Of a stretch of 64,000 bases of DNA, positions 9,154-58,832 are shown piece by piece. The position numbers and the translations under genes were made by a program. The DNA lies in NCBI GenBank assembly GCA_964457485.1, contig CAYWFO010000001.1, forward strand, positions 6,755 through 70,754. Reading direction: 5' to 3'. The stretch's first letter is position 1, and each line of letters begins with the position of its first letter. A model generated the notes under the pieces. It was not told the DNA's origin, did not search any database, and worked only from the letters and a program-made list of their open reading frames with translations. This DNA comes from an uncultured Haloferacaceae archaeon (GTDB taxonomy: Archaea > Halobacteriota > Halobacteria > Halobacteriales > Haloferacaceae).

Positions 9154-9173
9154 CGTCGATCATTGTGTTAGGT

Positions 9174-9434: not shown

Positions 9435-9557
9435 CGATTCCATCCGAAAAGACACGAGAACTCCGGAACAAGCCATCGGCCCACGACAGCTCAATTGGCT
9501 CCACAGAACCCGCACCGCAGCACAGACCCCGTTACTTATGCGTGGTCAAAGCGTCAC

Positions 9558-10379: not shown

Positions 10380-10432
10380 CCTCATCGCTGTTTCGGAGTC
10401 TCACTGCCGGTCGTTCAGGAGTCTTCGGCGTC

Positions 10433-10882: not shown

Positions 10883-10990
10883 ACTGTCGCTTGGTGTTCA
10901 GCGGTTATGTGACTTTGGCAAACGCGTGGGAAACACCAATAGGTCGCGAGTCCAAAGCTGTGTATCGTCGGTGTTCCGACACTCCAACCC

Positions 10991-11611: not shown

Positions 11612-11633
11612 GTTGCGTCTTTTCACGCGGCAC

Positions 11634-12464: not shown

Positions 12465-12538
12465 ACGCACCAGTGGCACTGCTCGGTCAAATCTCTGGCT
12501 GGCGAACGACTATACGCCGTGGCCGATTATGCGACCCA

Positions 12539-39582: not shown

Positions 39583-40362
39583 GTGTCGACCATTCAACTG
39601 ACGCTCGTGCAAATCGACAACTATGGTCCGTGGACGGTGACGCCCGAACCCCGCCGCGAAATGGATCTCCAGACCCTCCAATCACGGCTGTTTGCCGACA
39701 TCGCCCAGTTCGTCGGAAGCCGCGACGGCTACGTGTTTTTTACCCGGTTCGACAACATGATTGCCGTCACAAACGGCATCGGCCGTCCGGCCCACAAAAC
39801 GCTTCAAGAGAGCATCCGCAACCGGTATCCGGTGACGATCAGCCTCGGCGTCGGCGTCGCCGACACTCCCGTCGACGCGCTTGAGGTCGCCACCGAGGAG
39901 ATTCAGGCCGCCGGGAGCGCCCAGGACGAAACACGAACCGAAGTGCTCGCCGGGGAGTTCCTCCCGGCCGACAGCGCGCGCACACTGACGATTGCACATT
40001 TCGATGTCAAAAACGCGACCGGCAAGTACACCGACCGGCTCAACGAGTTCGATTCGTTTATCGAAATCGAATGCGGCTACGCCTCGCTGATGGAGTACAT
40101 GCGCCGAACCCACGGCGCACTCTCGTTTTTTGTCGGCGGCGACAACATCATCGCGGTCTGTCCGGAACTGTCGACCGCTGACTACCGAGCCGCCGTCGAC
40201 CACGTCGACAGCGACGTTGGCGTCGCACTCCAGGTCGGGATCGGCCGGGGTGACTCCGCCCACGAGGCGGGCTACGCGGCGAAACACGCGCTTGAGGACT
40301 GTCGGTACAGCGGGACGACCGTCGAGTTCGGCGAGCAAGCGGTTGCAACGAGCGACGACTGA
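39583..40362 (+). CDS. arfA: GTP cyclohydrolase III (ArfA-type)
   Basis: The GTG-start ORF reads TLVQIDNYGPWTVTPEPRREMDLQTLQSRLFADI...FTRFDNMIAVTNGI...IRNRYPVTISLGVG. This closely resembles the M. jannaschii MJ0145-type enzyme as I remember it. Confidence 0.88.
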   Translation: MSTIQLTLVQIDNYGPWTVTPEPRREMDLQTLQSRLFADIAQFVGSRDGYVFFTRFDNMIAVTNGIGRPAHKTLQESIRNRYPVTISLGVGVADTPVDALEVATEEIQAAGSAQDETRTEVLAGEFLPADSARTLTIAHFDVKNATGKYTDRLNEFDSFIEIECGYASLMEYMRRTHGALSFFVGGDNIIAVCPELSTADYRAAVDHVDSDVGVALQVGIGRGDSAHEAGYAAKHALEDCRYSGTTVEFGEQAVATSDD

Positions 40363-41247
40363 ATGCGTCTACTTTTTACCATCGGGCTGGTCGCGGTCGT
40401 TCTCGGGGTCACCGCCGTTTTGCTTGCCGCGTTGCTCGTGATCTGTGTCGACCGCAAACGGCTGTCGTGGCTGCGAACCGATCGGGGGTTCGTTCGCGGT
40501 CGACTTCGGGCAATCGCCCCCTTCGTTGCGGTGCTGACCGGGATTCTCGTCGTCAACAAGGGATTGCAGCCATACATCGTCGCCTTCTCGTATCGGTACG
40601 GGGTCGAGCCGACCGAGCTGTTTTACGCCATCGAGGGCAACACGGTCGCGGTGATTCAGAGCGCGTTTCCGGGGTGGGCAACGGTGTACTTCTCGGGTAT
40701 GTACGTCTTCGGCTACGCAGTGTTGCTGACGTTTCCGTTGGGTGCGTATCTGTTCGCATCGTCGACGCGGCCGCTCAAAACGCTCGTCGGTGCGTACGCC
40801 ATCAACTACGCCGTGGCTGTCGGCTGTTATGCGGCCGTTCGAGCCCACGGGCCAGGAACCTTTCACGAGCAGTCGTCGTCGGCAGCGACAGTGAACCACG
40901 GCCTCGTCGAGCTGTTTCCCGACATCGTCTATCTCACCTCGTTGGTCAACTCCCAGACCAACGTGTTTCCATCGCTACACACTTCGCTGTCGGTGACGGT
41001 GCTGGCTGTCGCCGTGTTGACACACGCGGAGTTCCCGCGGTGGACACCGATCGCTACAGTGCTGGCGACAAGCATCGTGCTAGCGACACTGGTGCTCGGC
41101 ATTCACTGGCTCGTCGATGTCGCCGCCGGTGTCGTGTTGGCGGCGCTGAGCGTCGCTGGCGCGCGCCGAGTGGTCGGCCACCACGGTGGGTCGAACGCTG
41201 CCGAGCCAGTGACGTTGCGCGCGGGACACCCGACAGAATCCGACTGA
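40363..41247 (+). CDS. PAP2-superfamily membrane phosphatase/transferase
   Basis: Multi-TM protein with PAP2 C2/C3 motifs (FPSLHTS ... IHWLVDVAAG). Its ATG directly abuts the arfA stop (TGAATG). Confidence 0.75.
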   Translation: MRLLFTIGLVAVVLGVTAVLLAALLVICVDRKRLSWLRTDRGFVRGRLRAIAPFVAVLTGILVVNKGLQPYIVAFSYRYGVEPTELFYAIEGNTVAVIQSAFPGWATVYFSGMYVFGYAVLLTFPLGAYLFASSTRPLKTLVGAYAINYAVAVGCYAAVRAHGPGTFHEQSSSAATVNHGLVELFPDIVYLTSLVNSQTNVFPSLHTSLSVTVLAVAVLTHAEFPRWTPIATVLATSIVLATLVLGIHWLVDVAAGVVLAALSVAGARRVVGHHGGSNAAEPVTLRAGHPTESD

Positions 41248-41345: not shown

Positions 41346-42161
41346 CTACGCGGGCGTCGCCCGAAGCACCGGCCGCGAGGAAAACACCGGTTCGCACTCG
41401 TAGCCCGCAGCCGAGAGCAACTCGCGAATCCTCTCGCCGTCGACGTGAACCTCACAGTAGATAATCCGCGGCTCGTGTGTCGTGATCGTCTCTTCGAGTC
41501 CGCGGAGCACCGCGGCATCGGCACCCTCAGCGTCGATTTTGATGACGTCGGGTGGCGCTATCCGCTCTTCGTCGACGAGGCGGTCGCCGGTTGCGGTTTC
41601 GACCTCGATTGTCGCATCGAGCGCGTCCGGTTGGGCGGTCGAAAGCCGCGCAGCAGGCGTCGGATCGGCGGTGAACTCGGCGGTTTGGGTAGCGTCAGAC
41701 AGCGCACACTCGTGTACGCGAATGTCGTGACCCGTGGTGTCGACGACCTCGCGAAGCCGGTCGGCAACGCCAGGATGCGGTTCGAACGCCTCGACGGTCA
41801 CGTCGGGGGCGACCGCGGCTGCGACAACGGCGTGCCAGCCGAGGTGTGCGCCGACATCGTAAACTACGTCGCCTGCGGCGAGTTCCTCGCCGAGTTCCTC
41901 GAACAGTTCGTACTCGGGATGCATCCACCGAAAGCGTTCGTACTGCCAGTCGGCGGCGAGGGGGAACTCGACGTTTTGGTCGCCGATCTCGTGACAGATC
42001 GTTTCCCGCGAGGAAACTCGATAAAGCAGTTTCGGCACGCCGAGTTGCCAGTAGAGCCTACGGAGCCGCGACCGCAGCCCCACGCGGTCGAGTCCCGATT
42101 CGAGGCGAGTGCGATAGCGTCGGACGTCAGCACGCATTACGTACCGTTCGAACCACAGCAT
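41346..42161 (-). CDS. FkbM-family SAM-dependent methyltransferase
   Basis: VYDVGAHLGWH (motif I) and IKIDAEGADAAVLRGL are typical of Methyltransf_21/FkbM. Start at MLWFERY (42161), 8 nt downstream of the flippase stop. Confidence 0.8.
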   Translation of the reverse strand: MLWFERYVMRADVRRYRTRLESGLDRVGLRSRLRRLYWQLGVPKLLYRVSSRETICHEIGDQNVEFPLAADWQYERFRWMHPEYELFEELGEELAAGDVVYDVGAHLGWHAVVAAAVAPDVTVEAFEPHPGVADRLREVVDTTGHDIRVHECALSDATQTAEFTADPTPAARLSTAQPDALDATIEVETATGDRLVDEERIAPPDVIKIDAEGADAAVLRGLEETITTHEPRIIYCEVHVDGERIRELLSAAGYECEPVFSSRPVLRATPA

Positions 42162-42168
42162 CCTAAAT

Positions 42169-43677
42169 TCACGGCGACCGATCGACGAGTTCGGCGTACA
42201 GTTCGGCGTCAACGCGCTCGATGCCGAGCACCCAGAGCGTCCCGGCGTAGACGATGGTGGCCGCGCCGACGCCGACTGCAACGCCAACGGGCCCGCTAAT
42301 GACGACTCCTTGGGCAAGCGTGAGACCGACGGCGACAGCGACGCCAGCGACAAGCGGCTTAAGAAACGCTCGATTGTAGGGAGTCATCCCCTCGAAATAC
42401 CAGACCTCGGCGAGTTTGGTGAGGTTTCGCACGGCGAGCACGCCGGCGGAGGCGAGCGCGGCACCGACCAGGCCGAACAGCTGGATGAATACGACCGTGA
42501 GAACCACGTTGGCGACGCCGAACAGCCATTCGTTTGCCATAACGACGTACTGGTGATCGGTCATCATCAGCAAATAGCCGCTCGGGCCGGTCGCCGCGTT
42601 GCACAGTTGACCGACGAGCATCACCACCAAGACGGCCGTGCCAGCGGTGAACTCGGGGCCGAACAGTCCCAGGAGTTCGACCCGGAACGCGGCGATGAGC
42701 ACGGCCACCAGCAGGCTGATCGTGAAAATCCAGCGCGTGACTGCCCGGTAGATTGCCACCAGATCGGGACGCTGGCCGCGTGAGTAGAGTCGGGAGGCAA
42801 CCGGCGCGAACAGCTGGTTGGCCGCCAGCAACGGCACGTACAGCACCCCTGCGACCAACACGGCGACGTTGTAGACGCCGACGGCCGTTGCCGAGAGAAA
42901 CACGCCGACCAACAGCACGTCGAGACGGCCCTGCATCACCGTTCCGGCCTCTTTGGCCGTCAGCGGCAGCGAGTAGTTGTAGTAGTCGCGAACCGTCTCA
43001 CGGGTTGCCGCCGGCGAGCGAAGCTGTGGGCGAACCGCGGTTCGGGTGATGAACAGATACCCCGCCACGCCGAGCGTGAGCACGCTCGCGACGACCATGG
43101 CCACGACCACACCGAAGACGCCCACGCCAGCGACGAGCGCGACGCCGACACAGCCCACGCGCATGACCGGTTTGAACAGGCGCTTGCTGAGTACCTCGTA
43201 CTCGATGATTTCGAGCGCGCGAAACGTCGCATACACCAGATTGCCGGCCGTATCGAGAAACAAAATCACGGCAAACAGCCTCAGCACGCCGACGAACGTC
43301 GGCTCAGTGAGCGTGAGCGCGTTCACCGTCGGCGCAAAAACGAACAGCCCGCCGGCGACGACACTCGCCCCAGCGATCGAAGTGAGCCACGCGAGCGCCA
43401 AATAAAACCGTCGTCGCTCCGGGTGGTGTTCGTACTGCGGGAGATACCGAACGATCGATTTGTCGCTACCGAGATTCGTGAGCAACAACGCGGTAAAGGC
43501 GAGCGTTTTGCCGTAGGCGAACAGTCCATACAGCCCCGCACCGAGAACCCGCGAGACGAGGAGGTGGAGAATGAACTCGCCGATGTCGGAGACGACTTTT
43601 CCGACGGTGTACAGCGAGCCGCCACAGACGATTGTCACGAGCGACGAGCGCCGTGTGCCTTCGTCGGCTCCGCGCAT
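42169..43677 (-). CDS. Wzx-like oligo/polysaccharide flippase (MOP superfamily)
   Basis: 502 aa with about 12-14 TM helices and the polysaccharide-biosynthesis-protein layout (GKVVSDIGEFILHLLVSRVLG..., YNYSLPL). Confidence 0.8.
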   Translation of the reverse strand: MRGADEGTRRSSLVTIVCGGSLYTVGKVVSDIGEFILHLLVSRVLGAGLYGLFAYGKTLAFTALLLTNLGSDKSIVRYLPQYEHHPERRRFYLALAWLTSIAGASVVAGGLFVFAPTVNALTLTEPTFVGVLRLFAVILFLDTAGNLVYATFRALEIIEYEVLSKRLFKPVMRVGCVGVALVAGVGVFGVVVAMVVASVLTLGVAGYLFITRTAVRPQLRSPAATRETVRDYYNYSLPLTAKEAGTVMQGRLDVLLVGVFLSATAVGVYNVAVLVAGVLYVPLLAANQLFAPVASRLYSRGQRPDLVAIYRAVTRWIFTISLLVAVLIAAFRVELLGLFGPEFTAGTAVLVVMLVGQLCNAATGPSGYLLMMTDHQYVVMANEWLFGVANVVLTVVFIQLFGLVGAALASAGVLAVRNLTKLAEVWYFEGMTPYNRAFLKPLVAGVAVAVGLTLAQGVVISGPVGVAVGVGAATIVYAGTLWVLGIERVDAELYAELVDRSP

Positions 43678-43783
43678 AGTGGTTACTCGGCGCGCGGCCC
43701 CATCGCTCTTTGTATCTCCGTCCCCATCGGAATCGCGCCGACACGTCTTTTATGTCGGCAGTCGTACGTCGTGTATCCGCCAC

Positions 43784-44869
43784 ATGTCCGGATCCGCACT
43801 CTATTTCACCGCGCCGCGAACCGTCGAACGACGACCGATCGAAGTCGCTCGCGTGGCTCCCGATGAAGTGGTTGTCGAAACGGTGGCGTCGGCGATCAGC
43901 GCGGGCACCGAACTGTTGGTCTATCGCGACGAGATTCCCGAACAGACCCCGATTGACGACGCGCTTCCCGCATTCGATGGTGATTTTTCGTATCCGCTCC
44001 GGTACGGCTATTCGACCGTCGGTCGGGTCGTCGACTGCGGCTCGCGTGTTGACGACGACTGGCTCGGTCGAACCGTCTTTGGATTTTATCCGCATCAAAC
44101 ACACGTTACCGCAAGGCCAACGGAACTCGTGGTCGTCGACGACGCGGTTGAGCCGGCACACGCCGCGTTGTTACCGACGCTCGAAACCGCGACAAATCTC
44201 GTGTTGGACGCCGCGCCGATGCTCGGCGAGCGCGTGGTAGTGTTCGGCGCAGGCAGTATCGGGCTGTGTACTATCCGGCTGCTGGCGAGCTTCCCGCTTG
44301 CCGAACTCGTTGTCGTCGAACCGGTCGAACACCGACGGGAGATTGCCCGTGAGTTCGGTGCCGACCGCGTCTATGATCCCACCGCCGACACCGAGTTGGG
44401 TGCCGACCGCGATTTCGACGCCGGCGACAACGCCGACCGCGATGCCGCTGTCGGCAACAGTGAACCGGACGAAACTGTCGTCGACCGCGTTGGCGACGGC
44501 TTCGATCTGGCGATCGAACTGTCGGGCCAGCCCGACGTGCTCAACACCGCCGTCGACGCCGTGGGCTACGATGGCCGCGTCGTCGTCGGCTCGTGGTACG
44601 GCTCGAAACGGACGTCCGTCGACTTCGGCGGACGGTTCCATCGCAACCGCATCGAGATTCGTTCCAGCCAGGTGAGCACGATTGCCCCCGAACTCCGCGG
44701 CCGCTGGAACCGCGACCGGCGCTTCGAGACGGCGCTCGACGGGCTGTCTCGCATCGACTGCGAGCGCCTCATCACACACCGGATTCCGTTTACCGCGGCC
44801 GAGCGAGCCTACGAACTGCTCGATTCGTCGCCCGAATCGGTGTTGCAGGTGGTGTTGACATACGAATGA
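43784..44869 (+). CDS. medium-chain dehydrogenase/reductase (zinc-ADH fold, BchC/threonine-dehydrogenase-like)
   Basis: Start at MSGSALYF (43784). SAISAGTELLVYRD...YGYSTVGRVV...VVVFGAGSIGL (Rossmann GxGxxG). The canonical catalytic-Zn Cys/His ligands are not obvious. Confidence 0.75.
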   Translation: MSGSALYFTAPRTVERRPIEVARVAPDEVVVETVASAISAGTELLVYRDEIPEQTPIDDALPAFDGDFSYPLRYGYSTVGRVVDCGSRVDDDWLGRTVFGFYPHQTHVTARPTELVVVDDAVEPAHAALLPTLETATNLVLDAAPMLGERVVVFGAGSIGLCTIRLLASFPLAELVVVEPVEHRREIAREFGADRVYDPTADTELGADRDFDAGDNADRDAAVGNSEPDETVVDRVGDGFDLAIELSGQPDVLNTAVDAVGYDGRVVVGSWYGSKRTSVDFGGRFHRNRIEIRSSQVSTIAPELRGRWNRDRRFETALDGLSRIDCERLITHRIPFTAAERAYELLDSSPESVLQVVLTYE

Positions 44870-45414
44870 ATCTGGGCGACCGACTACGAGCGCGCCTGAC
44901 TGCATTCGCCCGACTCGCATTTGTCGGTGCGCTCGGCTGGCTGGCGCTTCGGTGGCTGCCGCTGTGGCGCGTTCGACGCTGGGCCGCCGTCTGGTCGGTT
45001 CGACTCCCCGACCGGTTGTTGCCGACCCATCTTCGCGTGTTGCCACCGCCCGACCGCGAGTATCTCGGCGTCTGGGCTGTGCCCCCCGCCGAGGCACGTC
45101 GGCGACTGCGGTCGACATACGGCTTCAGCCAGCAGATTCGAGCGTATCTCCACGCCTACGAGCGACACGGCGCGATGCGGTACGAACAGGCGAGTCTCTC
45201 GTATCGGCCCGACGGCTTTTTTGGCCCGTGGCAACTGCATGTGCGGCTGTTTCCGACCCATACCGGCGAGACTGCGGTATGGTGTCACTGGGAGCGCAAC
45301 CCCACGGTCTCCCCGCTTGCGCACCTCCGACAGGACGGCTACAGCCCGGCCAAAGGCAAACACTGGTTGCAGACGCTCCTCGATGAACCGCTTCGGCCTG
45401 CCGAAAACCGGTAA
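44866..45414 (+). CDS. hypothetical protein with N-terminal TM helix
   Basis: The ATG overlaps the upstream stop (ATGA at 44866-44869). 182 aa, Arg/Trp-rich. No family recognised. Confidence 0.55.
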   Translation: MNLGDRLRARLTAFARLAFVGALGWLALRWLPLWRVRRWAAVWSVRLPDRLLPTHLRVLPPPDREYLGVWAVPPAEARRRLRSTYGFSQQIRAYLHAYERHGAMRYEQASLSYRPDGFFGPWQLHVRLFPTHTGETAVWCHWERNPTVSPLAHLRQDGYSPAKGKHWLQTLLDEPLRPAENR

Positions 45415-45510
45415 TCTTGTCGGTCACGCGGTGAGATTAGCGACATCACGAGTCGACACGCAACCGCTCGCAACCAAACACATTTGCTCGTGTAGGCCAA
45501 CTACGAACCA

Positions 45511-45882
45511 ATGAGCCCGTTCGGCCGTGGACTGCAAACCGAATCACTGACTCCGCTGCACTGGGCCGCAATTGCGATGGCAATCGTCAGCGCAGCCGTC
45601 CACCTCCTCATCGGAATCGAAATTATGCCGAGCGCGCTGGGTATCTCGTTTTTGCTTGCGACCGGCGGTTTCATCGGCGGCATCCTGCTTGTGTTGTTCG
45701 CGATTCGTCGCCGACTCGTGTACGCGGCCGGAATTCCGTTCACGGGGATTCAGCTCATCCTCTGGTATCTGCTGAACGATATTTCGGGCTTCGGAGACAT
45801 CGGAACGCTTGACGCGGTCGACAAGATCGCACAGGTGCTGTTGATTCTCGCGCTCATCGTGCTCTTGCGCCGTGAGCCGTAG
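45511..45882 (+). CDS. hypothetical 4-TM membrane protein
   Basis: 123 aa with four clear hydrophobic helices. No family recognised. Confidence 0.6.
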   Translation: MSPFGRGLQTESLTPLHWAAIAMAIVSAAVHLLIGIEIMPSALGISFLLATGGFIGGILLVLFAIRRRLVYAAGIPFTGIQLILWYLLNDISGFGDIGTLDAVDKIAQVLLILALIVLLRREP

Positions 45883-46663
45883 CCATCAGTCTTCTTCGCC
45901 GCCAACGCTCTCGCCCAGCCGCCGCGTTCGCGGGCTGCTCGTTGTGGGCGTGAGACGGCGACTGACCCAGCCGCTCGCCCGTCGACTCACGCTTTCGTGG
46001 TGTCGCCGGCTACACGCGGCTCGCCGCCGACTCGCGCCGGGGCGCTACACCGATTGCGACCCGTTTCGTCTCATTTCGGTCGATCCCGACACCATCACTC
46101 ACAGCCTCCTCGAATCCGCTCCGAAGTATCCACAGTGGGGCCGGGTTGTCGGCGGCGACTGGGATCAACACGGCGAGCCGTTCGCCGACAGGTCGGTGTC
46201 ACGCGGGCTCAGACAGCGGTTCGCCGAAGGCCGACCGTGGGACGAAACGGCGCTGTTTGACGCGTTTGTCGACCAACTCGAGCGGTTTGGCAACGCGTGG
46301 GGCTACCGATCGCTTGCGGGATTCGACGCGCGGTGTGCGGAAATCGAGGCCTTGTCCGAGTCGCTTAACGCCGACGGCTACCGGCGACAGGAGCGGCTAG
46401 CCACCGTCGACACGCCGCGGCTGGCCCATCGCGCCGATGAGATCGGTGTCGACATCGGCCGTGATGGCGAAATCTACTGGCGTGCGTACGGCCAGCACCG
46501 CCTTGCGCTGGCACAGCTGCTCGGGCTCGATTCGGTTTGGGTGGTGGTTCATCGTCGTCACCGCCGTTGGCAGGCGCGTCGTGACCGGCTTCGAAACGAG
46601 CCACAAAACGTGACCAACACAAGCCACCCGGATCTGGCATCGGTTTCGGCGGTGAGTCGATGA
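45872..46663 (+). CDS. hypothetical protein with ParB/Srx-like C-terminal motif; contains no methionine codon (GTG start)
   Basis: ORF in the operon frame. GQHRLALAQLLGLDSVWVVVHRRH resembles the ParB-N/Srx G-x-H-R-[LV]-x-A motif. The N-terminus is Arg-rich. Its stop overlaps the next ATG (ATGA at 46660-46663). Confidence 0.55.
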   Translation: MSRSHQSSSPPTLSPSRRVRGLLVVGVRRRLTQPLARRLTLSWCRRLHAARRRLAPGRYTDCDPFRLISVDPDTITHSLLESAPKYPQWGRVVGGDWDQHGEPFADRSVSRGLRQRFAEGRPWDETALFDAFVDQLERFGNAWGYRSLAGFDARCAEIEALSESLNADGYRRQERLATVDTPRLAHRADEIGVDIGRDGEIYWRAYGQHRLALAQLLGLDSVWVVVHRRHRRWQARRDRLRNEPQNVTNTSHPDLASVSAVSR

Positions 46664-47424
46664 CAGCCGCAGCCGACGCGTCGCCGACCGGTGGACGCTG
46701 GCGGCCCTTCGCGGTGGCAACGCTCTGTGGACTGGCTGCGGTCGCCGGCGCGCTCGTGGCGCTTTCGAGGGTCGACGACGTTGTGCTGACAGAACGGGTC
46801 GTTGGCGTCCTCGCCGGCACGTTCATTGTGTTTGTCGCCATCGTTGGCTGGACGGTTACGTCTGCAACCCGGCAGGCGGGCCCACAGCGGCTCACCGTGG
46901 CGACCTGGGTCACGCTCGGCCGTGGCTGGGCGCTCGTGCTGTTTGCGGGCATCGTCGCGCTCGCGCCGACCGAAACTCGGCTTCAGTGGCTTGCGGCGGG
47001 GTTATTTCTCGTCGCTGCGGTGGGCGACGCCGCCGATGGGGCGCTGGCTCGTCGAACCGAGACGGTTTCGGAACTTGGAGCACGCCTCGACACGGAAACC
47101 GATGCGCTCGTTGTGCTCGTCGGCACGCTCGCGGTGGTCGGTCTCCGGTCGGTTCCCGGTGTCTTTGTGCTGGTTGGGCTCGCGCGCTACGGCTTCGTTG
47201 CGGCCGCCGGGCTCCGGCGACGCCGCGACCAGCCGATCTACGACCTCGAAGCGAACCGCTACCGCAAGTTCACGGGCGCAACGATCATGGGAACCATCGC
47301 GCTCGGGTTGGTTCCGGTCGTCGATCCAGCCGTCTCTCGCGCGGTTGGCTGGCTCGTCACCGTCCCGATTCTCACACATTTCATCTGGGACTATCTCGGT
47401 ATCACCGGCCGTCGTCCCGGCTGA
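46660..47424 (+). CDS. CDP-alcohol phosphatidyltransferase (second paralogue)
   Basis: Motif DGALARRTETVSELGARLDTETD equals D-G-x2-A-R-x8-G-x3-D-x3-D. Multi-TM. Confidence 0.85.
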   Translation: MTAAADASPTGGRWRPFAVATLCGLAAVAGALVALSRVDDVVLTERVVGVLAGTFIVFVAIVGWTVTSATRQAGPQRLTVATWVTLGRGWALVLFAGIVALAPTETRLQWLAAGLFLVAAVGDAADGALARRTETVSELGARLDTETDALVVLVGTLAVVGLRSVPGVFVLVGLARYGFVAAAGLRRRRDQPIYDLEANRYRKFTGATIMGTIALGLVPVVDPAVSRAVGWLVTVPILTHFIWDYLGITGRRPG

Positions 47425-47513
47425 GCCGTGTTTTCCGGCTACTTCTTCGGAGATCCGGCTGATCCGGCGTCGACTCGCCGGAACGTTCATTCGGTCGCCG
47501 GTACGACACCATC

Positions 47514-48287
47514 GTGATGACGACAGGCGACGAGCCCACGCGACACGCAGTCGGGGCGGGCGGCGAGTACATCGTTGGCGACGCCATTGTCCACCTCGCC
47601 GAGAACAAGGGGGCCGCGGCGATCGTTCTCGACGATGCGTGGGCGCGTCCCGGTCGACGCGAGCAGACGAGTGTGAGCTACCAGCTCCATCCGTTTGATG
47701 AGAACCAGCCGGCCGAGGGCGAACAGGTGACTGACGCGCTGACGACAACCCAGATTATCGATGCCTGTTACGACGCGCTCGCGCCTGGCGGCTGGCTCAT
47801 CGCCGACGTCGACGACTGGTTGTTGGCTCGGCTCGTTTCGTATCTCCGCAAAACGTGGGGTGATGCGACCGAACAACACGAGGGCGGCGGCTTTCGGCGG
47901 GTCGGCAGCGTGACGTATCTCACTGACGCGGGCGAACCCGACCGCGACACACATGGCCCGTTTCTCTCGACGGGCGGCTACAGCGTCGTCTTCGCGCACA
48001 AGGGCCCGACCGACCGCCGAACGAACGTATCGGCCAGACAGGTCGCCCGGTGGCCGACCGAAACCTACGGCCGCGGCGGCCGCGCCAAACCGGTCGGCCC
48101 GTACGAGGCGTGGCTGTCCGGCCTCGTTGACCCCGGCGAACTCGTGGTCGTTCCCTGTGCGGGCACTGCACCTGCGGCGATTGCGGCGCAACGACTGTTC
48201 GGCGATGAGGCCCGGTTCGTGTGTATCGATATCGAGCCGGCGGCCTACGAGGGGTTCGCCGCTCGGTACGACCAACAGGTCGAGTGA
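47514..48287 (+). CDS. N6/N4-DNA-methyltransferase-fold protein with degenerate catalytic and SAM motifs
   Basis: The layout parallels PF01555-type beta-class MTases: GDAIVHLAE..AAAIVLDDAWARP where S/D-P-P-Y is expected, ALAPGGWLIADVDDW, then AKPVGPYEAWLSGLVDPGELVVVPCAGTAPAAIAA where DPF-GSGTT is expected. Confidence 0.6.
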   Translation: MMTTGDEPTRHAVGAGGEYIVGDAIVHLAENKGAAAIVLDDAWARPGRREQTSVSYQLHPFDENQPAEGEQVTDALTTTQIIDACYDALAPGGWLIADVDDWLLARLVSYLRKTWGDATEQHEGGGFRRVGSVTYLTDAGEPDRDTHGPFLSTGGYSVVFAHKGPTDRRTNVSARQVARWPTETYGRGGRAKPVGPYEAWLSGLVDPGELVVVPCAGTAPAAIAAQRLFGDEARFVCIDIEPAAYEGFAARYDQQVE

Positions 48288-48325
48288 GCCGCGGATTTAA
48301 GCAACGCTCGCGTCTACCGTAACTC

Positions 48326-48703
48326 ATGTACGCGGTCTCCGTGTCGCGCAGTTTTGTCGCACAGCACTTTTTGACCGTGCCCGATCCGGGGCCCGAGGGC
48401 GAGTTGCACTCACACCACTTCACAGTCACCGCAACGTACCGTGGCCCACAACTCAATGCGTACGGCTATCTCGTCGACATCGACGCCGTTATCGAGGCGC
48501 TGGAGGCGACCGTCTCTTCGTTTCGTGACGAAACGCTCAACGACCTGTCGCTGTTCGAAGACAAAAACCCGAGCGCGGAGCATTTCGCACGGATTTTCGG
48601 CGACCGCCTGACCGACCGACTGCGTCCGCCGGGCGCGACACAGCTCGAAATCGCCATCCAAGAGGACGAGGTGGCAACGGTGACACACGAACGGTCGCTG
48701 TGA
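48326..48703 (+). CDS. 6-pyruvoyl-tetrahydropterin synthase/QueD-fold (COG0720) protein, Glu in place of catalytic Cys
   Basis: 125 aa with Zn-ligand histidines FVAQH14F and ELH28SH30H. The QueD-type C-x3-H-x-H motif reads E24-G-E-L-H-S-H. Confidence 0.8.
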   Translation: MYAVSVSRSFVAQHFLTVPDPGPEGELHSHHFTVTATYRGPQLNAYGYLVDIDAVIEALEATVSSFRDETLNDLSLFEDKNPSAEHFARIFGDRLTDRLRPPGATQLEIAIQEDEVATVTHERSL

Positions 48704-49836
48704 CTCACCATCCTCCCGACGAGCCGCTTCACATCGGCCTTGTCGTCTACGGCGACCTGTCGACTGCATCCGGCGGGTTTCGCTACGACCGAAAGCTCGT
48801 CGAGTTTCTTCGTCGTCGCGGAGACTGGGTCGACGTGATTTCGCTGCCTTGGCGGTCGTATTCGCGGAACGTCGCCCGCGGGCTGCTGCCCTCAGTTCGC
48901 ACGCGGTTGGATCGGCAGGTGGATGCGCTCGTTGTCGACGGGCTCTGTCACTCCGCGCTGTGGCGACACGGTGGCCGCCTCAGCGAGCCGCGCGCGGTTG
49001 TCGGCTTGCTCCATCACATCCAGTCGGACGATCCGACCGAGCGGTTCGGCCGATTTTTCGAACCGTTCGAGCGACGGTTTCTCCGCGGGCTCGACGCGAC
49101 GATTGCGACCAGCGAGTTCACCCAGCAGCGTGCGGCCCGGCTTGCGCCGACCGTGACCGATCAGCCGGCACTCGTTGCGCCACCCGGTGGGCGTCTGTCA
49201 GTTCGCGACCGAAACAACACCGAAACCACTGAAACCACCGAAGCCATCAAAAAACCACCGCGAAAACCGGGCGAGCCGTTCGAACTGCTGTTTGTCGGAA
49301 GCGTCGTCTCCCGGAAGGATCCCAAGGCGTTGCTTTCGGCGGTTAGCTCGGCTCGCGAGCAGTTGGGCGACTGGCGGCTCACCGTTATCGGCAGCCGAAC
49401 GGCCGACCCAGCGTACGCCAACTCCGTCGTTGCGTACGCCGAGTCGCTCGGCATCGCAGACCGGGTGACGTTCGCCGGTGAGGTGTCGAGACCAACAGTT
49501 GAGGCGGCGTTCGAGCGAAGTCACGTCTGTTGTGTTCCCTCCCGATACGAGGGGTTCGGCATGGTGTATCTCGAGGCGATGGAGTACGGTGTGGTGCCGA
49601 TTGCAAGCGCCCGCGGCGGTGCGAGCGAGTTCATCGAACACGGACGAAGCGGATTTCTGGTCGAACCAGGCGACTCCGCGACGATTGCGGATTCACTCAC
49701 CGCGCTGGCGACCGATTCCGACCGACTGGCGACGATGAGTCAGCGCGCTCGCACAGCGGCTGTCGCCCACCCACCCTGGGACGAAACGCTCGAAGAAGTC
49801 CGTTCGTTTCTCTCCCGCGTCGTCGACACGGCGTGA
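48700..49836 (+). CDS. GT4-family (GT-B, group 1) glycosyltransferase
   Basis: The GTG start overlaps the upstream stop (GTGA). E-x7-E motif EGFGMVYLEAME. Typical group-1 C-terminal domain. Confidence 0.85.
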   Translation: MTHHPPDEPLHIGLVVYGDLSTASGGFRYDRKLVEFLRRRGDWVDVISLPWRSYSRNVARGLLPSVRTRLDRQVDALVVDGLCHSALWRHGGRLSEPRAVVGLLHHIQSDDPTERFGRFFEPFERRFLRGLDATIATSEFTQQRAARLAPTVTDQPALVAPPGGRLSVRDRNNTETTETTEAIKKPPRKPGEPFELLFVGSVVSRKDPKALLSAVSSAREQLGDWRLTVIGSRTADPAYANSVVAYAESLGIADRVTFAGEVSRPTVEAAFERSHVCCVPSRYEGFGMVYLEAMEYGVVPIASARGGASEFIEHGRSGFLVEPGDSATIADSLTALATDSDRLATMSQRARTAAVAHPPWDETLEEVRSFLSRVVDTA

Positions 49837-49911
49837 GAACGCGGCGAACCCGACGGGTTGGACAGCATCAAAACCCGGAACCGATTTGACCGCGAGCCCA
49901 TTCATATCTGT

Positions 49912-50700
49912 ATGGACGACCGGCATCGACTCACAGTCGGTCTCGTTGTCGGCTCGCTGCTGGTTCTCAGTGGCTTCGCTCCCCATCCGATACTCGCCTC
50001 GCCGTACGAGACGAGCGAGCCCGCGCCGTACCTTCACCAAGCGGTTTCAGCAGATGACAGCCAGTTCGACCAACTGGTTGCGCTCTACGGATTCGATCGA
50101 GAGAACGCGATCGCTATCGAGGAGCTGTCGCCGGCGGCGCAAACCGCCGTTGAGCGGACGCTGGCCGACGATGCCGCCGCTGGCGAGTGGCGGCGGTACG
50201 AACTTCCCGTCTGTGCGACCGGCATGCTCGCGTGCGACACGGTTCGCGAACCGCCGAGCGAGTTCCACTACGGTGAAGGAACCCCCGACGAGGTTTTCAC
50301 CATCATCGACGTTGACGGCGACCGATATCTCCTCCAGACAGGTGTTCAGACCGACGCGCGAACCGGTGTCGACCTCCGCAGCCAACCGGTGTCGACGTTC
50401 GCGTGGCTGTTCGGGCTGCTTCCGTTCGGCGCGCTCGTCATTGCGAGCCACGTCATCGGCCGGGCGACCGGCGAGCGCCGCGTGGCCGACGTGCTGACTG
50501 CCGGCGGTGCGGGGCTGCTTGCGCTGGGCATTGCGGTGCCCTACCTCACCGTATTTGGCGTTCTCACCTACGACGACGTTGCGATCGACCTCCTCATCGT
50601 CGCCGTCGGGATGGCCGTTCTCGCGGCGGGCGGGCTGGTATACCAGACCGTCCAGTACGCAAAAACAACCGAGAGCGCGAAACGCCGACGTGGAACGTAA
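49912..50700 (+). CDS. hypothetical membrane-anchored protein
   Basis: Start at MDDRHRL (49912). N-terminal TM or signal anchor, soluble middle domain, then three C-terminal TM helices. No family recognised. Confidence 0.55.
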   Translation: MDDRHRLTVGLVVGSLLVLSGFAPHPILASPYETSEPAPYLHQAVSADDSQFDQLVALYGFDRENAIAIEELSPAAQTAVERTLADDAAAGEWRRYELPVCATGMLACDTVREPPSEFHYGEGTPDEVFTIIDVDGDRYLLQTGVQTDARTGVDLRSQPVSTFAWLFGLLPFGALVIASHVIGRATGERRVADVLTAGGAGLLALGIAVPYLTVFGVLTYDDVAIDLLIVAVGMAVLAAGGLVYQTVQYAKTTESAKRRRGT

Positions 50701-52039: not shown

Positions 52040-52060
52040 ATCGCCGAAAAGACGTGCGTG

Positions 52061-53446: not shown

Positions 53447-53598
53447 GTGTGCGGTAGGAGATGCGTCGGCTTGTAGGTTGGGCTGGGTTGCCGGCAGGTG
53501 GCTGGCCGACGCGTGGTTGGCTGGCCGACGAATCCGGCGTGCTGACGGGGCGATTGGGAGCACCGGTTTTTATGCGACCACCTGACCTCTGTTCGTGC

Positions 53599-54039: not shown

Positions 54040-54167
54040 ACCGTGCTGTCGACACCGCTGTCCGATCCCGCGTTGCGGTGGCACGACAGTCAGTCGTGAG
54101 CGACACGCTTAACCGCCAAACCGCGTGAACAAGGGATAATGAACCGTCTGCGACCGGAGGAATCGAC

Positions 54168-58647: not shown

Positions 58648-58832
58648 ACCGAAGCCTGCCCGTGGAACTCGCAAAAGCGTGTCGATGAGGCGGTCGATCG
58701 AGGCGAAAAACCATCACCGCTGTGCATAGTGATCCGTATTTACGCCGAAAAACACCCATAATATATGCGTACTCATGGATAGTGCCGCAGCCCGACCACA
58801 ACTGTTTTTCGGCCTGCCGGAAAGCGAGAGAT

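What the first reader, a model, noticed from the sequence alone, without database searches (positions are those of the whole stretch)
41346..50700. Unassigned, translationally coupled biosynthetic cluster with a divergent Wzx-like flippase and FkbM methyltransferase
Nine same-strand ORFs (43784-50700) are packed with start/stop overlaps: ATGA at 44866-44869 and 46660-46663, GTGA at 48700-48703, and an 11-nt overlap at 45872-45882. A flippase + FkbM methyltransferase pair diverges from the same 106-bp gap (43678-43783).

I cannot match the enzyme mix to any pathway I know. It is not an Agl-type N-glycosylation set, because there is no oligosaccharyltransferase, no GT2 dolichol-phosphate glycosyltransferase and no nucleotide-sugar enzymes. 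It nevertheless combines:
- a CDP-alcohol phosphatidyltransferase (lipid head-group chemistry)
- a pterin-synthase-fold enzyme
- an NAD(P)-dehydrogenase fold
- a GT4 glycosyltransferase
- two methyltransferase folds
- a ParB/Srx-like protein
- a flippase and three small membrane or unknown proteins

Working hypothesis, inference only: the cluster makes, decorates and exports a novel polar head group or glycoconjugate on an archaeol- or polyprenol-phosphate carrier, possibly built from a pterin-like or sugar-like alcohol.
Basis: partly seen in the sequence, partly recalled or inferred. Interest (0 to 1): 0.8.

Follow-up and report, generated by a model that had tools for sequence, protein, structure and literature searches.

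The report
Cross-domain conserved orphan biosynthetic gene cluster
The cluster is real, and it is the haloarchaeal version of an enzyme set also conserved in Streptomyces, Agrobacterium and other bacteria (dehydrogenase, pterin-synthase-like protein, sugar transferase, methyltransferase and lipid head-group transferase, next to a GTP ring-opening enzyme); its product is unknown but is probably a GTP-derived, sugar-decorated membrane compound.

Summary
The ORFs, coordinates, start/stop overlaps and seven of the eight family calls check out. The ParB/Srx call could not be verified.

The nine-gene array is not the conserved unit. Across 80 haloarchaeal loci the recurrent core is DUF7475, CDP-alcohol phosphatidyltransferase, MDR dehydrogenase, PTPS-like protein, GT4 and a class I methyltransferase. 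That methyltransferase is missing in this window. O4, O6, O8, O11, Wzx, FkbM and PAP2 are lineage-specific additions.

The PTPS-like protein's best solved relative is SCO6650, the PTPS-IV subfamily. Streptomyces, Agrobacterium, Thiodictyon and Methylosinus carry the same ADH-PTPS-GT4-MT order. They add a CDP-alcohol transferase, GTP cyclohydrolase II, a RibD-family reductase and an MprF-type flippase-like protein.

In this window, GTP cyclohydrolase IIa (archaeal type III) with a coupled PAP2 phosphatase lies just upstream, and the same enzyme recurs beside the cluster in at least five haloarchaeal lineages.

So the cluster is not unassigned. It belongs to a cross-domain neighbourhood already noted in the literature. 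I found no paper giving its product.

Best reading (inferred): a GTP-derived aminopyrimidine or pteridine-like alcohol is remodelled, glycosylated, methylated, joined to archaeol phosphate and flipped.

It is not Agl-type, not an inositol-lipid pathway and not QueD.

Interest is moderate to high.

The parts
39583..40362 (+). GTP cyclohydrolase IIa (archaeal type III, ArfA-like). Probable supplier of the GTP-derived formylamino-pyrimidine precursor.
   Evidence: Pfam GCH_III 297 bits. NCBIfam NF002587 395.7 bits against a cut-off of 306. A homologue lies beside the PTPS cluster in 7 of 80 loci from at least five lineages. Bacterial versions carry GTP cyclohydrolase II instead.
40363..41247 (+). 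PAP2-family membrane phosphatase. Its ATG directly follows the GCH IIa stop codon (TGA|ATG).
   Evidence: Pfam PAP2_3/PAP2. Weak NCBIfam hits to PgpB and undecaprenyl-diphosphate phosphatase. Five hydrophobic segments. Junction shown. Co-located with PTPS in L012, L013, L016 and L037.
41346..42161 (-). FkbM-family SAM methyltransferase, downstream of Wzx on the minus strand.
   Evidence: PF05050 73 bits and TIGR01444 102 bits. FkbM-like genes lie beside the cluster in 5 of 80 loci.
42169..43677 (-). Wzx/MOP-type flippase (Polysacc_synt).
   Evidence: PF01943 68.5 bits and PF13440 51.7 bits. Many hydrophobic segments. Present in 4 of 80 loci. Bacterial versions carry an LPG_synthase_TM flippase-like protein instead.
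43678..43783 (.). 106-bp divergent intergenic region, with a TTTTAT box about 31 nt upstream of the ADH ATG.
   Evidence: Sequence read directly. Promoter function is inferred, not tested.
43784..44869 (+). MDR-family NAD(P) dehydrogenase (BchC-like) that seems to lack the classical catalytic and structural zinc cysteines.
   Evidence: ADH_zinc_N 54.6 bits; best NCBIfam hit BchC at 87 bits, below cut-off. GAGSIG at residue 155 and first Cys at residue 85. 33% identical to the Streptomyces cluster ADH and 30% to the Agrobacterium one, E about 1e-36. Within 10 kb of PTPS in 62 of 80 loci.
44866..45414 (+). O4, a 182-aa basic protein of unknown family. Its start overlaps the ADH stop (ATGA).
   Evidence: No Pfam, NCBIfam, PDB or PADLOC hit. 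Paired with ADH in 8 of 80 loci and in L010.
45511..45882 (+). DUF7475, a small protein with four hydrophobic segments.
   Evidence: PF24287 39 bits. Hydropathy. Present in 41 of 80 loci. DUF7475 and CDPOH each occur within 5 kb of PTPS in 31 of 59 complete loci, 28 of them with both.
45944..46663 (+). O6, a 239-aa basic protein (263 aa if it starts at GTG 45872). Its stop overlaps the CDPOH start (ATGA). Family without a Pfam model.
   Evidence: Start as called. Conserved YGQHRLAxA and HRRHxxWQ motifs. 2743 representative relatives at E<=1e-3. A few relatives carry class I MT domains. ParB/Srx fold not verified. Found in 8 of 80 loci plus L009 and L010.
46660..47424 (+). CDP-alcohol phosphatidyltransferase paralogue, a multi-span membrane enzyme of unassigned specificity.
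   Evidence: PF01066 65.5 bits. All NCBIfam equivalogs fall far below cut-off (PgsA 40 against 109, AIP synthase 25 against 180). Complete catalytic motif at residue 123. 33-43% identical to the cluster CDPOH of Agrobacterium and Streptomyces. Present in 41 of 80 loci.
47517..48287 (+). O8, a beta-class N6A/N4C DNA-methyltransferase-fold protein with motif IV DDAW in place of DPPY. Lineage-specific insert.
   Evidence: AF2 pLDDT 88. Foldseek hits to M1.HpyAVI, CcrM, MboIIA and PvuII at E 1e-10 to 1e-8. Invariant LDDAWxRP and VPCAGTAPAA. Weak PADLOC MTase hits. In 5 of 80 loci. Homologues at about 50% identity sit alone in defence islands.
48326..48703 (+). PTPS-fold (T-fold) protein of a haloarchaeal PTPS-IV-like clade. 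It keeps three His in the Zn-site positions, has Glu24 where QueD has Cys, and has an invariant Glu113. An ATTTAAG box lies about 30 nt upstream.
   Evidence: PF01242 76.7 bits. Best solved relative is SCO6650 (3D7J), E 2e-15 over the full length, against QueD at 1.5e-6. Residue comparison. 357 relatives found in Halobacteria. Upstream sequence.
48700..49836 (+). GT4 retaining glycosyltransferase. Its start overlaps the PTPS stop (GTGA).
   Evidence: PF00534 129 bits. EX7E at residue 284. 30% identical over 368 aa to the Agrobacterium cluster GT4, E 1e-30. Best solved relatives match only the C-terminal half: sucrose-phosphate synthase, BshA, MshA, and BH4 glucosyltransferase at E 8e-10. Present in 53 of 80 loci.
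49912..50700 (+). O11, a 262-aa membrane protein of unknown family. It sits where other loci have the class I methyltransferase.
   Evidence: No Pfam or NCBIfam hit. One N-terminal and several C-terminal hydrophobic segments. Directly follows PTPS in four Halonotius loci, and follows the PTPS-GT4 pair in L012 and L013.

Best explanation
**Shown**
- The window carries the haloarchaeal version of a gene neighbourhood conserved across domains and built around a PTPS-IV-type T-fold protein.
- The recurrent haloarchaeal core is DUF7475, CDP-alcohol phosphatidyltransferase, MDR dehydrogenase, PTPS-like protein, GT4 and a class I methyltransferase.
- Streptomyces, Agrobacterium, Thiodictyon and Methylosinus have homologous ADH-PTPS-GT4-MT genes in the same order. 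They add CDPOH, GTP cyclohydrolase II, a RibD-family reductase, an MprF-type flippase-like protein and cytochrome b561.
- In this window the class I MT is missing. Lineage-specific genes are added: O4, O6, the O8 MTase-fold protein, O11, Wzx, FkbM, and the GCH IIa-PAP2 pair.

**Inferred mechanism**
1. GTP cyclohydrolase IIa opens GTP to a 2-amino-5-formylamino-6-ribosylamino-pyrimidinone 5'-phosphate.
2. The PTPS-like enzyme remodels this compound or a close derivative. It seems to keep the His triad of the Zn site and the base-binding Glu, but has no Cys nucleophile. The NAD(P) dehydrogenase acts in the same step or next to it.
3. GT4 adds a sugar to the resulting alcohol.
4. A methyltransferase methylates it. 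Here that would be FkbM or O8, elsewhere the class I MT.
5. The CDP-alcohol phosphatidyltransferase couples it through a phosphodiester to archaeol phosphate, from CDP-archaeol.
6. PAP2 removes a remaining phosphate, following the PGP-synthase/PgpB logic.
7. Wzx flips the product to the outer face of the membrane.

The minimal versions (ADH-PTPS-MT) imply that the first product is a small soluble molecule. GT4 and CDPOH+DUF7475 are separable add-on modules.
For: - **Synteny in Halobacteria.** In 80 loci, ADH occurs in 62, MT in 60, GT4 in 53, CDPOH in 41 and DUF7475 in 41. Of 59 loci with at least 5 kb on both sides, 24 have the full set.
- **Link to PTPS-IV.** The PTPS profile's best solved match is SCO6650 at E 2e-15, against 1.5e-6 for the best QueD.
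- **Bacterial neighbourhoods.**
  - Streptomyces L092: CDPOH | ADH-PTPS-GT4-MT-LPG_synthase_TM-187aa-GCH II.
  - Agrobacterium pAt: flippase-like | CDPOH-RibA | ADH-PTPS-GT4-MT | RibD-cyt b.
  - Thiodictyon: ADH-PTPS-GT4-MT-cyt b-RibD-CDPOH.
  - Methylosinus: ADH-PTPS-GT4-MT-like | RibD.
- **Homology.** Pairwise identity of ADH, PTPS, GT4, MT and CDPOH between the domains is 24-43%, with E values from 1e-4 (the methyltransferase) to 1e-36.
- **GTP link.** GCH IIa is adjacent in 7 of 80 loci from at least five lineages. About 0.5 would be expected for a single-copy gene within 20 kb; this is my estimate. AGeNNT independently reports PF00925 and RibD_C in PTPS-IV neighbourhoods (PMC5445326).
- **Membrane end-point.** CDPOH with an intact motif, DUF7475, PAP2, Wzx and O11 are all membrane proteins. 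The bacterial versions have MprF-type flippase-like proteins.
- **Not the housekeeping enzyme.** An AIP-synthase-like paralogue lies elsewhere in the window, at 34335-35024.
Against: - No enzyme activity, metabolite or lipid has been observed. Every chemical step is inferred from family membership and gene context.
- A 2016 review states, citing unpublished work, that PTPS-IV acts in F420 synthesis (PMC5041015). That would point to a soluble cofactor.
- GT4 and CDPOH are absent from many loci and from the Rhodobacteraceae example, so lipid linkage is not universal.
- GCH IIa is adjacent in only 7 of 80 loci, and it may simply be the housekeeping riboflavin gene.
- The haloarchaeal PTPS differs from bacterial PTPS-IV at the signature: PGPEG...HSH against FGPAQ...HGA. 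The chemistry may therefore differ.
- CDP-alcohol transferases can also make soluble phosphodiesters, as in di-myo-inositol phosphate synthesis (from my own knowledge).
- Wzx, FkbM and PAP2 are linked in only 4-5 loci and could serve an unrelated surface glycan.
Confidence: 0.45

Rival explanations
1. Soluble cofactor or small-molecule pathway. The conserved ADH-PTPS-MT core, with GCH II/IIa and RibD, makes a soluble GTP-derived pteridine, flavin or deazaflavin-related compound, or a precursor for F420. GT4 adds a sugar, as in pterin glycosides. The CDP-alcohol transferase forms a soluble phosphodiester rather than a lipid.
For: - Minimal clusters lack both GT4 and CDPOH: the Halobellus and Haloplanus loci and Rhodobacteraceae L097.
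- A review says PTPS-IV is involved in F420 synthesis, citing unpublished work (PMC5041015).
- RibD_C and GCH II neighbours match the early riboflavin/F420 steps.
- The GT4 has a detectable match to UDP-glucose:tetrahydrobiopterin glucosyltransferase, E 8e-10.
Against: - This window's version has five membrane proteins: CDPOH, DUF7475, PAP2, Wzx and O11.
- Two bacterial versions have MprF-type flippase-like proteins, which a soluble product would not need.
- The BH4-glucosyltransferase hit is no better than generic GT4 hits.
- The cluster also occurs in Agrobacterium, which to my knowledge is not an F420 producer. I did not test this.
Confidence: 0.25
2. A mosaic with no single pathway. The 9+2 gene block brings several units together by accident:
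- the PTPS-IV core;
- an orphan DNA methyltransferase (O8) with a partner (O6);
- a Wzx/FkbM pair for a surface glycan;
- the housekeeping riboflavin gene for GCH IIa.

On this reading the start/stop overlaps reflect ordinary operon packing.
For: - O4, O6, O8, O11, Wzx, FkbM and PAP2 each occur in only 4-8 of 80 loci.
- O8 homologues at 47-51% identity sit alone in defence or mobile islands beside GmrSD.
- Intergenic gaps with TATA-like boxes split the array.
- In H. vacuolatum the parts lie on two contigs.
Against: - The accessory genes travel with the core into different genomic contexts (L010/L011, L016, L037, L038, L045, L049).
- O6 is translationally coupled to CDPOH, and O4 to ADH.
- GCH II or IIa recurs next to the core in both domains.
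- A flippase of a different family recurs in bacteria.
Confidence: 0.15
3. An Agl-type or S-layer glycan, or a glycosylated inositol-phospholipid pathway. In the second case CDPOH would be an AIP/PIP synthase and GT4 a PimA-like enzyme, as in the mycobacterial pgsA1-pimA operon.
For: - A CDPOH, GT4, flippase and methyltransferase occur together.
- GT4's best characterised relatives include MshA, which uses inositol phosphate.
- The ADH has a weak hit to scyllo-inosose dehydrogenase.
Against: - No AglB/STT3, GT2 or nucleotide-sugar enzyme appears in any scanned ORF.
- The cluster CDPOH scores 25 bits against the AIP-synthase model's cut-off of 180. A separate paralogue at 34335-35024 scores 141.
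- No inositol-phosphate synthase is present.
- This reading does not explain the invariant PTPS-like gene or the GTP cyclohydrolase link.
Confidence: 0.07
4. A DNA or RNA base-modification or defence module. A QueD-like enzyme would make a 7-deazaguanine-type base that O8 (DNA-MTase fold), O6 (ParB-like) and GT4 install or decorate on nucleic acid.
For: - O8 has a beta-class DNA MTase fold and weak PADLOC MTase hits.
- O8 homologues lie next to GmrSD, TGT/DpdA-like and BrxC/D-like genes in L007.
- GT4 has a sub-dominant hit to the 'GT4-conflict' Pfam family.
Against: - The core is conserved without O8 or O6 in more than 70 loci and in bacteria.
- The PTPS lacks the QueD cysteine.
- No QueC, QueE or DpdA is present in the window.
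- Apart from O8's two weak methyltransferase matches, none of the seven proteins tested, including O6, GT4 and PTPS, hits a PADLOC model.
- A membrane CDP-alcohol transferase has no role in such a system.
Confidence: 0.03

Closest known systems
SCO6650 / PTPS-IV neighbourhood of Streptomyces coelicolor and other bacteria (structure 3D7J, function unassigned)
   Same: - SCO6650 is the best solved relative of the window's PTPS-like protein.
- Homologous ADH, PTPS, GT4, MT and CDPOH genes lie in the same order.
- A GTP ring-opening cyclohydrolase is adjacent: GCH II in bacteria, GCH IIa here.
- A flippase-type membrane protein is present.
   Different: - The haloarchaeal protein has PGPEG...HSH (three His, Glu24). 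The bacterial proteins have FGPAQ...HGA (two His).
- The cyclohydrolase is the archaeal IIa/III type, not type II.
- The flippase is Wzx/MOP, not LPG_synthase_TM.
- No RibD_C or cytochrome b561 is present. DUF7475 is present instead.
- This window lacks the class I MT and has extra O4, O6, O8, O11, FkbM and PAP2.
Two-step phospholipid head-group synthesis (PgsA + PgpB; mycobacterial PgsA1 + PimA operon)
   Same: A CDP-alcohol phosphatidyltransferase with an intact catalytic motif, a PAP2 phosphatase and a GT4 lie in one neighbourhood. PgsA is the best solved relative of the CDPOH.
   Different: - Scores fall far below every equivalog cut-off: PgsA 40 against 109, AIP synthase 25 against 180.
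- The acceptor alcohol is unknown.
- The cluster is tied to PTPS-like and GTP cyclohydrolase genes, which no known phospholipid pathway uses.
Pteridine glycoside biosynthesis (tetrahydrobiopterin glucoside and cyanopterin in cyanobacteria; solfapterin in Sulfolobus)
   Same: A PTPS-fold enzyme is paired with a GT4-type glycosyltransferase. GT4 matches BH4 glucosyltransferase 5ZER at E 8e-10. A methyltransferase fits methylated sugar decorations (from my own knowledge of cyanopterin).
   Different: - The PTPS here lacks the catalytic Cys.
- The linked cyclohydrolase is type IIa, which opens the imidazole ring. It is not type I or MptA, which make neopterin.
- The BGluT match is no stronger than generic GT4 matches.
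- Known pterin-glycoside pathways have no CDPOH or flippase.
Early riboflavin/F420 pathway (ArfA GCH IIa, RibD reductase)
   Same: GCH IIa is a bona fide member above the curated cut-off. RibD_C reductases sit in the bacterial clusters. A review links PTPS-IV to F420.
   Different: No lumazine or riboflavin synthase and no CofG/H/C/D/E lie in the cluster. ADH, GT4, MT and CDPOH have no role in the known pathways.
Haloarchaeal Agl N-glycosylation clusters
   Same: A Wzx-type flippase, a methyltransferase and a glycosyltransferase lie near each other.
   Different: No AglB oligosaccharyltransferase, no GT2 dolichol-phosphate glycosyltransferase and no nucleotide-sugar enzymes are present. The conserved core contains PTPS, ADH and CDPOH instead.

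Membership tests
PTPS-IV (SCO6650-type) conserved neighbourhood | The PTPS-fold protein is closest to SCO6650 rather than to QueD, PTPS-II or PTPS-III | tested here: met
   Profile A2 against PDB: 3D7J (SCO6650) at E 2e-15 over the full length; best QueD at 1.5e-6.
PTPS-IV (SCO6650-type) conserved neighbourhood | Sequence signature FGPAQ upstream of the His pair (PMC5445326) | tested here: not met
   Haloarchaeal proteins have PGPEGxLHSH. The bacterial ones have FGPAQ(R/G)(L/M)HGA. This is a sister clade, not a textbook member.
PTPS-IV (SCO6650-type) conserved neighbourhood | ADH-PTPS-GT4-class I MT gene order | tested here: inconclusive
   The order ADH...PTPS-GT4 is present, and the family-wide order is met in 60 of 80 loci. 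This window has no class I MT, and four other genes lie between ADH and PTPS.
PTPS-IV (SCO6650-type) conserved neighbourhood | A GTP cyclohydrolase II-type gene, a RibD_C gene or both in the neighbourhood | tested here: met
   GCH IIa at 39583-40362, 4.2 kb upstream of ADH. No RibD_C in the window.
PTPS-IV (SCO6650-type) conserved neighbourhood | CDP-alcohol phosphatidyltransferase homologous to the bacterial cluster enzyme | tested here: met
   33% identity with Agrobacterium (E 2e-16) and 43% with Streptomyces (E 4e-11).
QueD / PTPS-I (archaeosine and queuosine) | CxxxHGH motif with the catalytic Cys; QueC and QueE neighbours | tested here: not met
   Glu24 replaces the Cys, giving ExxxHSH. 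TIGR03367 scores 36 bits against a cut-off of 89. No QueC or QueE in the window.
Agl-type N-glycosylation cluster | AglB (STT3) oligosaccharyltransferase, GT2 Dol-P glycosyltransferases, nucleotide-sugar enzymes | tested here: not met
   None appears among the ORFs scanned across the window.
Archaetidylinositol-phosphate / PGP / archaetidylserine synthases | Score above the curated equivalog cut-off | tested here: not met
   PgsA 40.2 against 109; AIP synthase 25.3 against 180; archaetidylserine synthase 25.4 against 200. A different paralogue at 34335-35024 scores 140.9 against 180 for AIP synthase.
CDP-alcohol phosphatidyltransferase superfamily | Motif D(x)2DG(x)2AR(x)8G(x)3D(x)3D in a multi-span membrane protein | tested here: met
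   DAADGALARRTETVSELGARLDTETD at residue 123, and about six hydrophobic segments.
Beta-class N6A/N4C DNA methyltransferases (for O8) | Permuted MTase fold with motif IV (D/N/S)PP(Y/F/W) and the motif I FxGxG SAM loop | tested here: inconclusive
   The fold is met. Motif IV is an invariant DDAW, not DPPY, and the motif I-like sequence is PCAGTAPAA. No Pfam N6_N4_Mtase hit. Activity and target cannot be tested here.
ParB/Srx-like fold (for O6) | ParB N-terminal domain fold with a DGxHR-type motif | tested here: inconclusive
   Only a motif-level resemblance, YGQHRLAxA. No Pfam or PDB sequence hit.
Zinc-dependent alcohol dehydrogenases (catalytic-Zn MDR) | Catalytic Cys/His/Glu(Cys) ligands and a structural four-Cys lobe | tested here: not met
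   Only three Cys (residues 85, 162, 326) and none in the N-terminal GxCxxD-type position. The comparison with the consensus is from my own knowledge. The NAD(P) Rossmann motif GAGSIG is present.

The most novel reading that the evidence does not exclude
The cluster, together with its Streptomyces, Agrobacterium and Thiodictyon counterparts, makes a previously undescribed class of membrane compound. In it, a GTP-derived aminopyrimidine or pteridine-like head group is made by GTP cyclohydrolase II/IIa, a Cys-less PTPS-IV enzyme and an MDR dehydrogenase. The head group is then glycosylated, methylated, phosphodiester-linked to archaeol or diacylglycerol, and flipped outward. The result would be a nucleobase-derived, possibly redox-active lipid shared by Halobacteria, Actinobacteria and Proteobacteria. 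In the Halorubrum-type version, a DNA-methyltransferase-fold enzyme (O8) may have been recruited to methylate an exocyclic amine of that small molecule.
Probability: 0.3. Interest if true: 0.85.

Novelty: new variant of a known kind. Interest (0 to 1): 0.62.

Why it matters
The PTPS-IV branch of the COG0720/T-fold family has had a crystal structure but no published function for many years. The only hints are an unpublished F420 claim and a neighbourhood-network note.

This analysis shows that the same ADH-PTPS-GT4-MT-CDPOH set, tied to a GTP ring-opening cyclohydrolase, is conserved from Halobacteria to Streptomyces and Agrobacterium. That gives a concrete hypothesis: a GTP-derived, glycosylated head group or cofactor that is probably membrane-bound. 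It also offers several genetically tractable hosts for testing.

If confirmed, the work would:
- add a new type of polar lipid or cofactor;
- assign functions to at least five orphan families (PTPS-IV, the BchC-like MDR, DUF7475, O6 and the CDPOH paralogue);
- correct the routine mis-annotation of these proteins as 6-carboxytetrahydropterin synthase (QueD).

If the product proves to be an F420 or riboflavin intermediate, the result would be more modest but would still fill a pathway gap.

Tried and rejected
- **Agl/S-layer glycan cluster.** Rejected. No AglB, GT2 or nucleotide-sugar genes were found.
- **QueD/archaeosine.** Rejected. There is no Cys, the score is sub-threshold, and QueC and QueE are absent.
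- **Inositol-lipid (AIP synthase + PimA-like).** Rejected. The CDPOH scores 25 against a cut-off of 180, and a separate AIP-synthase-like paralogue exists.
- **Defence system.** PADLOC gave only two weak MTase hits for O8 and nothing for O4, O6, O11, GT4, PTPS or FkbM.
- **O8 by sequence.** The profile against PDB found nothing. Only structure prediction with Foldseek gave an assignment.
- **O6.**
  - Pfam on 8 and then 28 family members found no domain except occasional fused class I MT domains.
  - PDB profile searches found nothing.
  - The single-sequence model failed at pLDDT 39.
- **O4.** No hit in Pfam, NCBIfam, PADLOC or PDB.
- **Literature.** Nine full-text searches found no paper that characterises the cluster. 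They covered PTPS+GT+CDP-alcohol, SCO6650/SCO6655, halopterins, GCH II+CDP-alcohol and the title of the SCO6650 structure paper. The COG0720 paper (PMC3262898) is not held.
- **Other recurrent neighbours in the 80 loci.** These turned out to be ribosomal proteins L11, L1, L10 and L12, PEPCK and TctA. They reflect flanking conservation in Natrialbaceae, not cluster members.
- **Bacterial accessory genes.** RibD_C, cytochrome b561, LPG_synthase_TM and GCH II have no homologue in the window or in the haloarchaeal loci, apart from one RibD_C about 7 kb from the H. vacuolatum sub-cluster.
- **Promoter tool.** I did not use the sigma-70 promoter and terminator scan, because archaeal promoters are outside its scope. 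TATA-like boxes were read by eye instead.

Full report
**1. The observation**

The window has about 62% GC and comes from a haloarchaeon. The nearest named relatives are Halorubrum vacuolatum and an uncultured Haloferacaceae MAG.

The three 4-nt overlaps are exact: ATGA at 44866, ATGA at 46660 and GTGA at 48700.

The fourth overlap, 45872-45882, depends on the start chosen for O6. Gene callers on identical metagenome contigs use GTG 45944.

Gaps of 96, 92, 38 and 75 nt separate O4/DUF7475, CDPOH/O8, O8/PTPS and GT4/O11. TATA-like boxes lie about 27-32 nt upstream of the ADH, PTPS and O11 starts. The array is therefore more likely four or five transcription units than one. This is inference.

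Profile searches confirm these families:
- FkbM methyltransferase
- Wzx-like flippase
- an MDR dehydrogenase whose best NCBIfam hit is BchC
- DUF7475
- a CDP-alcohol phosphatidyltransferase with a complete catalytic motif
- a PTPS-fold protein
- a GT4 with EX7E

O4, O6, O8 and O11 have no Pfam or NCBIfam hit.

**2. The unknowns**

*O8 (47517-48287).* It gave a confident model at pLDDT 88. The best structural matches are beta-class N6-adenine/N4-cytosine DNA methyltransferases: M1.HpyAVI, CcrM, MboIIA and PvuII. Its motif IV is an invariant DDAW, not DPPY.

*O6.* The family is large, with 2743 representative clusters, and has no Pfam model and no solved relative. A YGQHRLAxA motif recalls ParB, but the fold could not be tested. 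A few relatives are fused to class I methyltransferase domains.

*Charge.* O4 and O6 are unusually basic for haloarchaeal proteins.

**3. Which genes belong together**

A scan of one genome per GTDB species with a profile of the PTPS-like protein found 357 relatives. The best 80, which are the only ones listed, are all from Halobacteria, and these loci were kept.

Genes within 10 kb of the PTPS-like gene:

| Gene | Loci (of 80) |
|---|---|
| ADH | 62 |
| Class I MT (about 310 aa) | 60 |
| GT4 | 53 |
| CDPOH | 41 |
| DUF7475 | 41 |
| O6 | 8 |
| O4 | 8 |
| GCH IIa | 7 |
| O11 | 6 |
| O8 | 5 |
| FkbM | 5 |
| Wzx | 4 |
| PAP2 | 4 |

Among the 59 loci with at least 5 kb on each side, 24 have DUF7475+CDPOH+ADH+GT4+MT. 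Eight have ADH+GT4+MT and five have ADH+MT only.

The conserved unit is therefore DUF7475-CDPOH-ADH-PTPS-GT4-MT. Its minimal core is ADH-PTPS-MT, with two separable add-ons: GT4, and CDPOH with DUF7475.

The window version lacks the class I MT entirely. It carries a lineage-specific set shared with L012, L013 and, in part, L016, L037, L038, L045, L049 and L010.

The other frequent neighbours are ribosomal-protein genes and PEPCK. They are flanking genes in Natrialbaceae, not cluster members.

**4. The link to a known family**

The PTPS profile's best solved relative is SCO6650 of Streptomyces coelicolor (3D7J), at E 2e-15 over the full length. The best QueD match reaches only 1.5e-6.

SCO6650 carries the FGPAQ signature that the literature uses for the PTPS-IV subfamily (PMC5445326).

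The genomic contexts match:

| Organism | Gene order |
|---|---|
| Streptomyces (L092) | CDPOH \| ADH-PTPS-GT4-MT-LPG_synthase_TM-187aa-GCH II |
| Agrobacterium pAt (L094) | flippase-like \| CDPOH-RibA \| ADH-PTPS-GT4-MT \| RibD-cytochrome b561 |
| Thiodictyon (L095) | ADH-PTPS-GT4-MT-cyt b-RibD-CDPOH |
| Methylosinus (L093) | ADH-PTPS-GT4-MT-like \| RibD |
| Rhodobacteraceae (L097) | ADH-PTPS-MT \| RibD |

ADH, PTPS, GT4, MT and CDPOH are each homologous between the domains, at 24-43% identity and E values from 1e-4 (the methyltransferase) to 1e-36.

The window cluster is thus the haloarchaeal form of this cross-domain neighbourhood.

The forms differ in several ways:
- The haloarchaeal PTPS keeps all three Zn-site His and has Glu24 (PGPEGxLHSH). 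Bacterial PTPS-IV has FGPAQ...HGA.
- The linked cyclohydrolase is the archaeal IIa/III type.
- The flippase here is Wzx-type.
- RibD_C and cytochrome b561 are absent here.

**5. What it probably does**

GTP cyclohydrolase IIa lies 4.2 kb upstream of ADH. It is translationally coupled to a PAP2 phosphatase (TGA|ATG). The same enzyme sits beside the cluster in at least five haloarchaeal lineages, in varying arrangements. Bacterial clusters carry GCH II and a RibD-type reductase.

The recurring theme is a ring-opened, GTP-derived ribosyl- or ribityl-aminopyrimidine as precursor.

From my own knowledge, and not verified here: the Streptomyces cluster cyclohydrolase, SCO6655, was reported to make the same formylamino product as the archaeal type III enzyme.

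The T-fold protein keeps the Glu that binds the 2-amino-4-oxo-pyrimidine edge in this superfamily. The rest of the set would act as follows:
- The MDR dehydrogenase supplies redox chemistry.
- GT4 adds a sugar.
- The methyltransferase adds a methyl group.
- The CDP-alcohol transferase forms a phosphodiester.

This window's version also has DUF7475, PAP2, Wzx and O11, all membrane proteins. Two bacterial versions have MprF-type flippase-like proteins. I therefore favour a membrane-bound, outward-flipped end product, at confidence 0.45.

The main rival is a soluble pteridine, flavin or F420-related compound. The minimal clusters and an unpublished F420 claim support it (PMC5041015).

The cluster CDPOH is not a housekeeping lipid synthase. 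All equivalog scores are far below cut-off, and an AIP-synthase-like paralogue lies at 34335-35024.

**6. O6 and O8**

They occur together between CDPOH and PTPS in only seven loci, all with Halorubrum- or Haloferacaceae-type arrangements. O8 homologues at about 50% identity sit alone beside GmrSD in defence islands of Halorussus and Natronolimnobius.

Two readings remain open:
- An orphan DNA methyltransferase has hitch-hiked into the cluster.
- An amino-methyltransferase fold has been recruited to methylate an exocyclic amine of the GTP-derived base. In this window it might replace the missing class I MT.

Neither is resolved.

**7. Novelty and verdict**

Three of its claims need correcting:
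- The cluster is not unmatched.
- Its boundaries are different from those given.
- It is not a single nine-gene unit.

Nine full-text searches found no paper that characterises the pathway.

I rate the finding a new variant of a known but functionally orphan kind. Interest is 0.62.

Noticed in passing
window 34335-35024 (-): A second CDP-alcohol phosphatidyltransferase paralogue. It scores 140.9 bits on the archaetidylinositol-phosphate synthase model (cut-off 180). It is probably a housekeeping lipid synthase, distinct from the cluster enzyme.
   Followed up: partly
L007 (Halorussus salilacus) 4110-10795; L008 (Natronolimnobius) 9131-12588: Homologues of O8 (DDAW-motif, DNA-MTase-fold protein; 51% and 47% identity) lie without the biosynthetic genes in defence or mobile islands. 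They sit next to GmrSD in both loci. L007 also has a TGT/DpdA-like gene and a BrxC/BrxD-like ATPase. L008 has transposases.
   Followed up: partly
L029, L032, L033, L039 and other Natrialbaceae loci: In Natrialbaceae the DUF7475-CDPOH-ADH-PTPS-GT4-MT operon sits between the ribosomal protein L11 gene and the L1/L10/L12 genes, an unusual position for a biosynthetic cluster.
   Followed up: partly
L068 and L071 (Haladaptatus pallidirubidus chromosome, 1.99 Mb and 1.44 Mb): Two copies of ADH-PTPS-GT4-MT on one chromosome, with identical match statistics. This looks like a recent duplication.
   Followed up: no
window 45944-46663 and relatives P0361-P0510: The O6 family is large (2743 representative clusters at E<=1e-3; 1508 at E<=1e-10) yet has no Pfam model and no solved structure. 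A few members are fused to class I SAM-methyltransferase domains.
   Followed up: partly
window 38666-39460 (-): A HAD-IIA phosphatase is transcribed divergently from GCH IIa across a 122-bp gap. The same pairing occurs in L013. It could be the missing phosphatase for a phosphorylated pyrimidine intermediate, or it could be unrelated.
   Followed up: no
window 51110-53563 (-) and 54129-55835 (+): A DHH/DHHA2 phosphoesterase and a cytochrome P450 form a tandem pair just downstream of the cluster, followed by an ELP3-like radical-SAM/GNAT protein. The identical metagenome contigs also carry a cold-shock gene between them.
   Followed up: no
window 58722-60416 (+), 57235-58647 (-), 61838-63298 (+): A Formyl_trans_N + AICARFT fusion (PurN/PurH-like) lies beside adenylosuccinate lyase and a FolC-type folylpolyglutamate synthase. 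These purine and folate genes are within 8-13 kb of a GTP-linked cluster.
   Followed up: no
window 15093-17030 (+): A 645-aa ORF with strong coding signal and no Pfam hit, lying between an ABC ATPase and an ABC-2 permease.
   Followed up: no
L009 (Halorubrum vacuolatum) and L037: In H. vacuolatum the cluster is split. DUF7475-O6-CDPOH-O8 with a nearby ADH is on one contig, next to F420 ligase (CofE-like), a luciferase-like oxidoreductase and, 7 kb away, a RibD_C gene. O4-Wzx-FkbM-PAP2-PTPS is on another contig, without GT4.
   Followed up: partly
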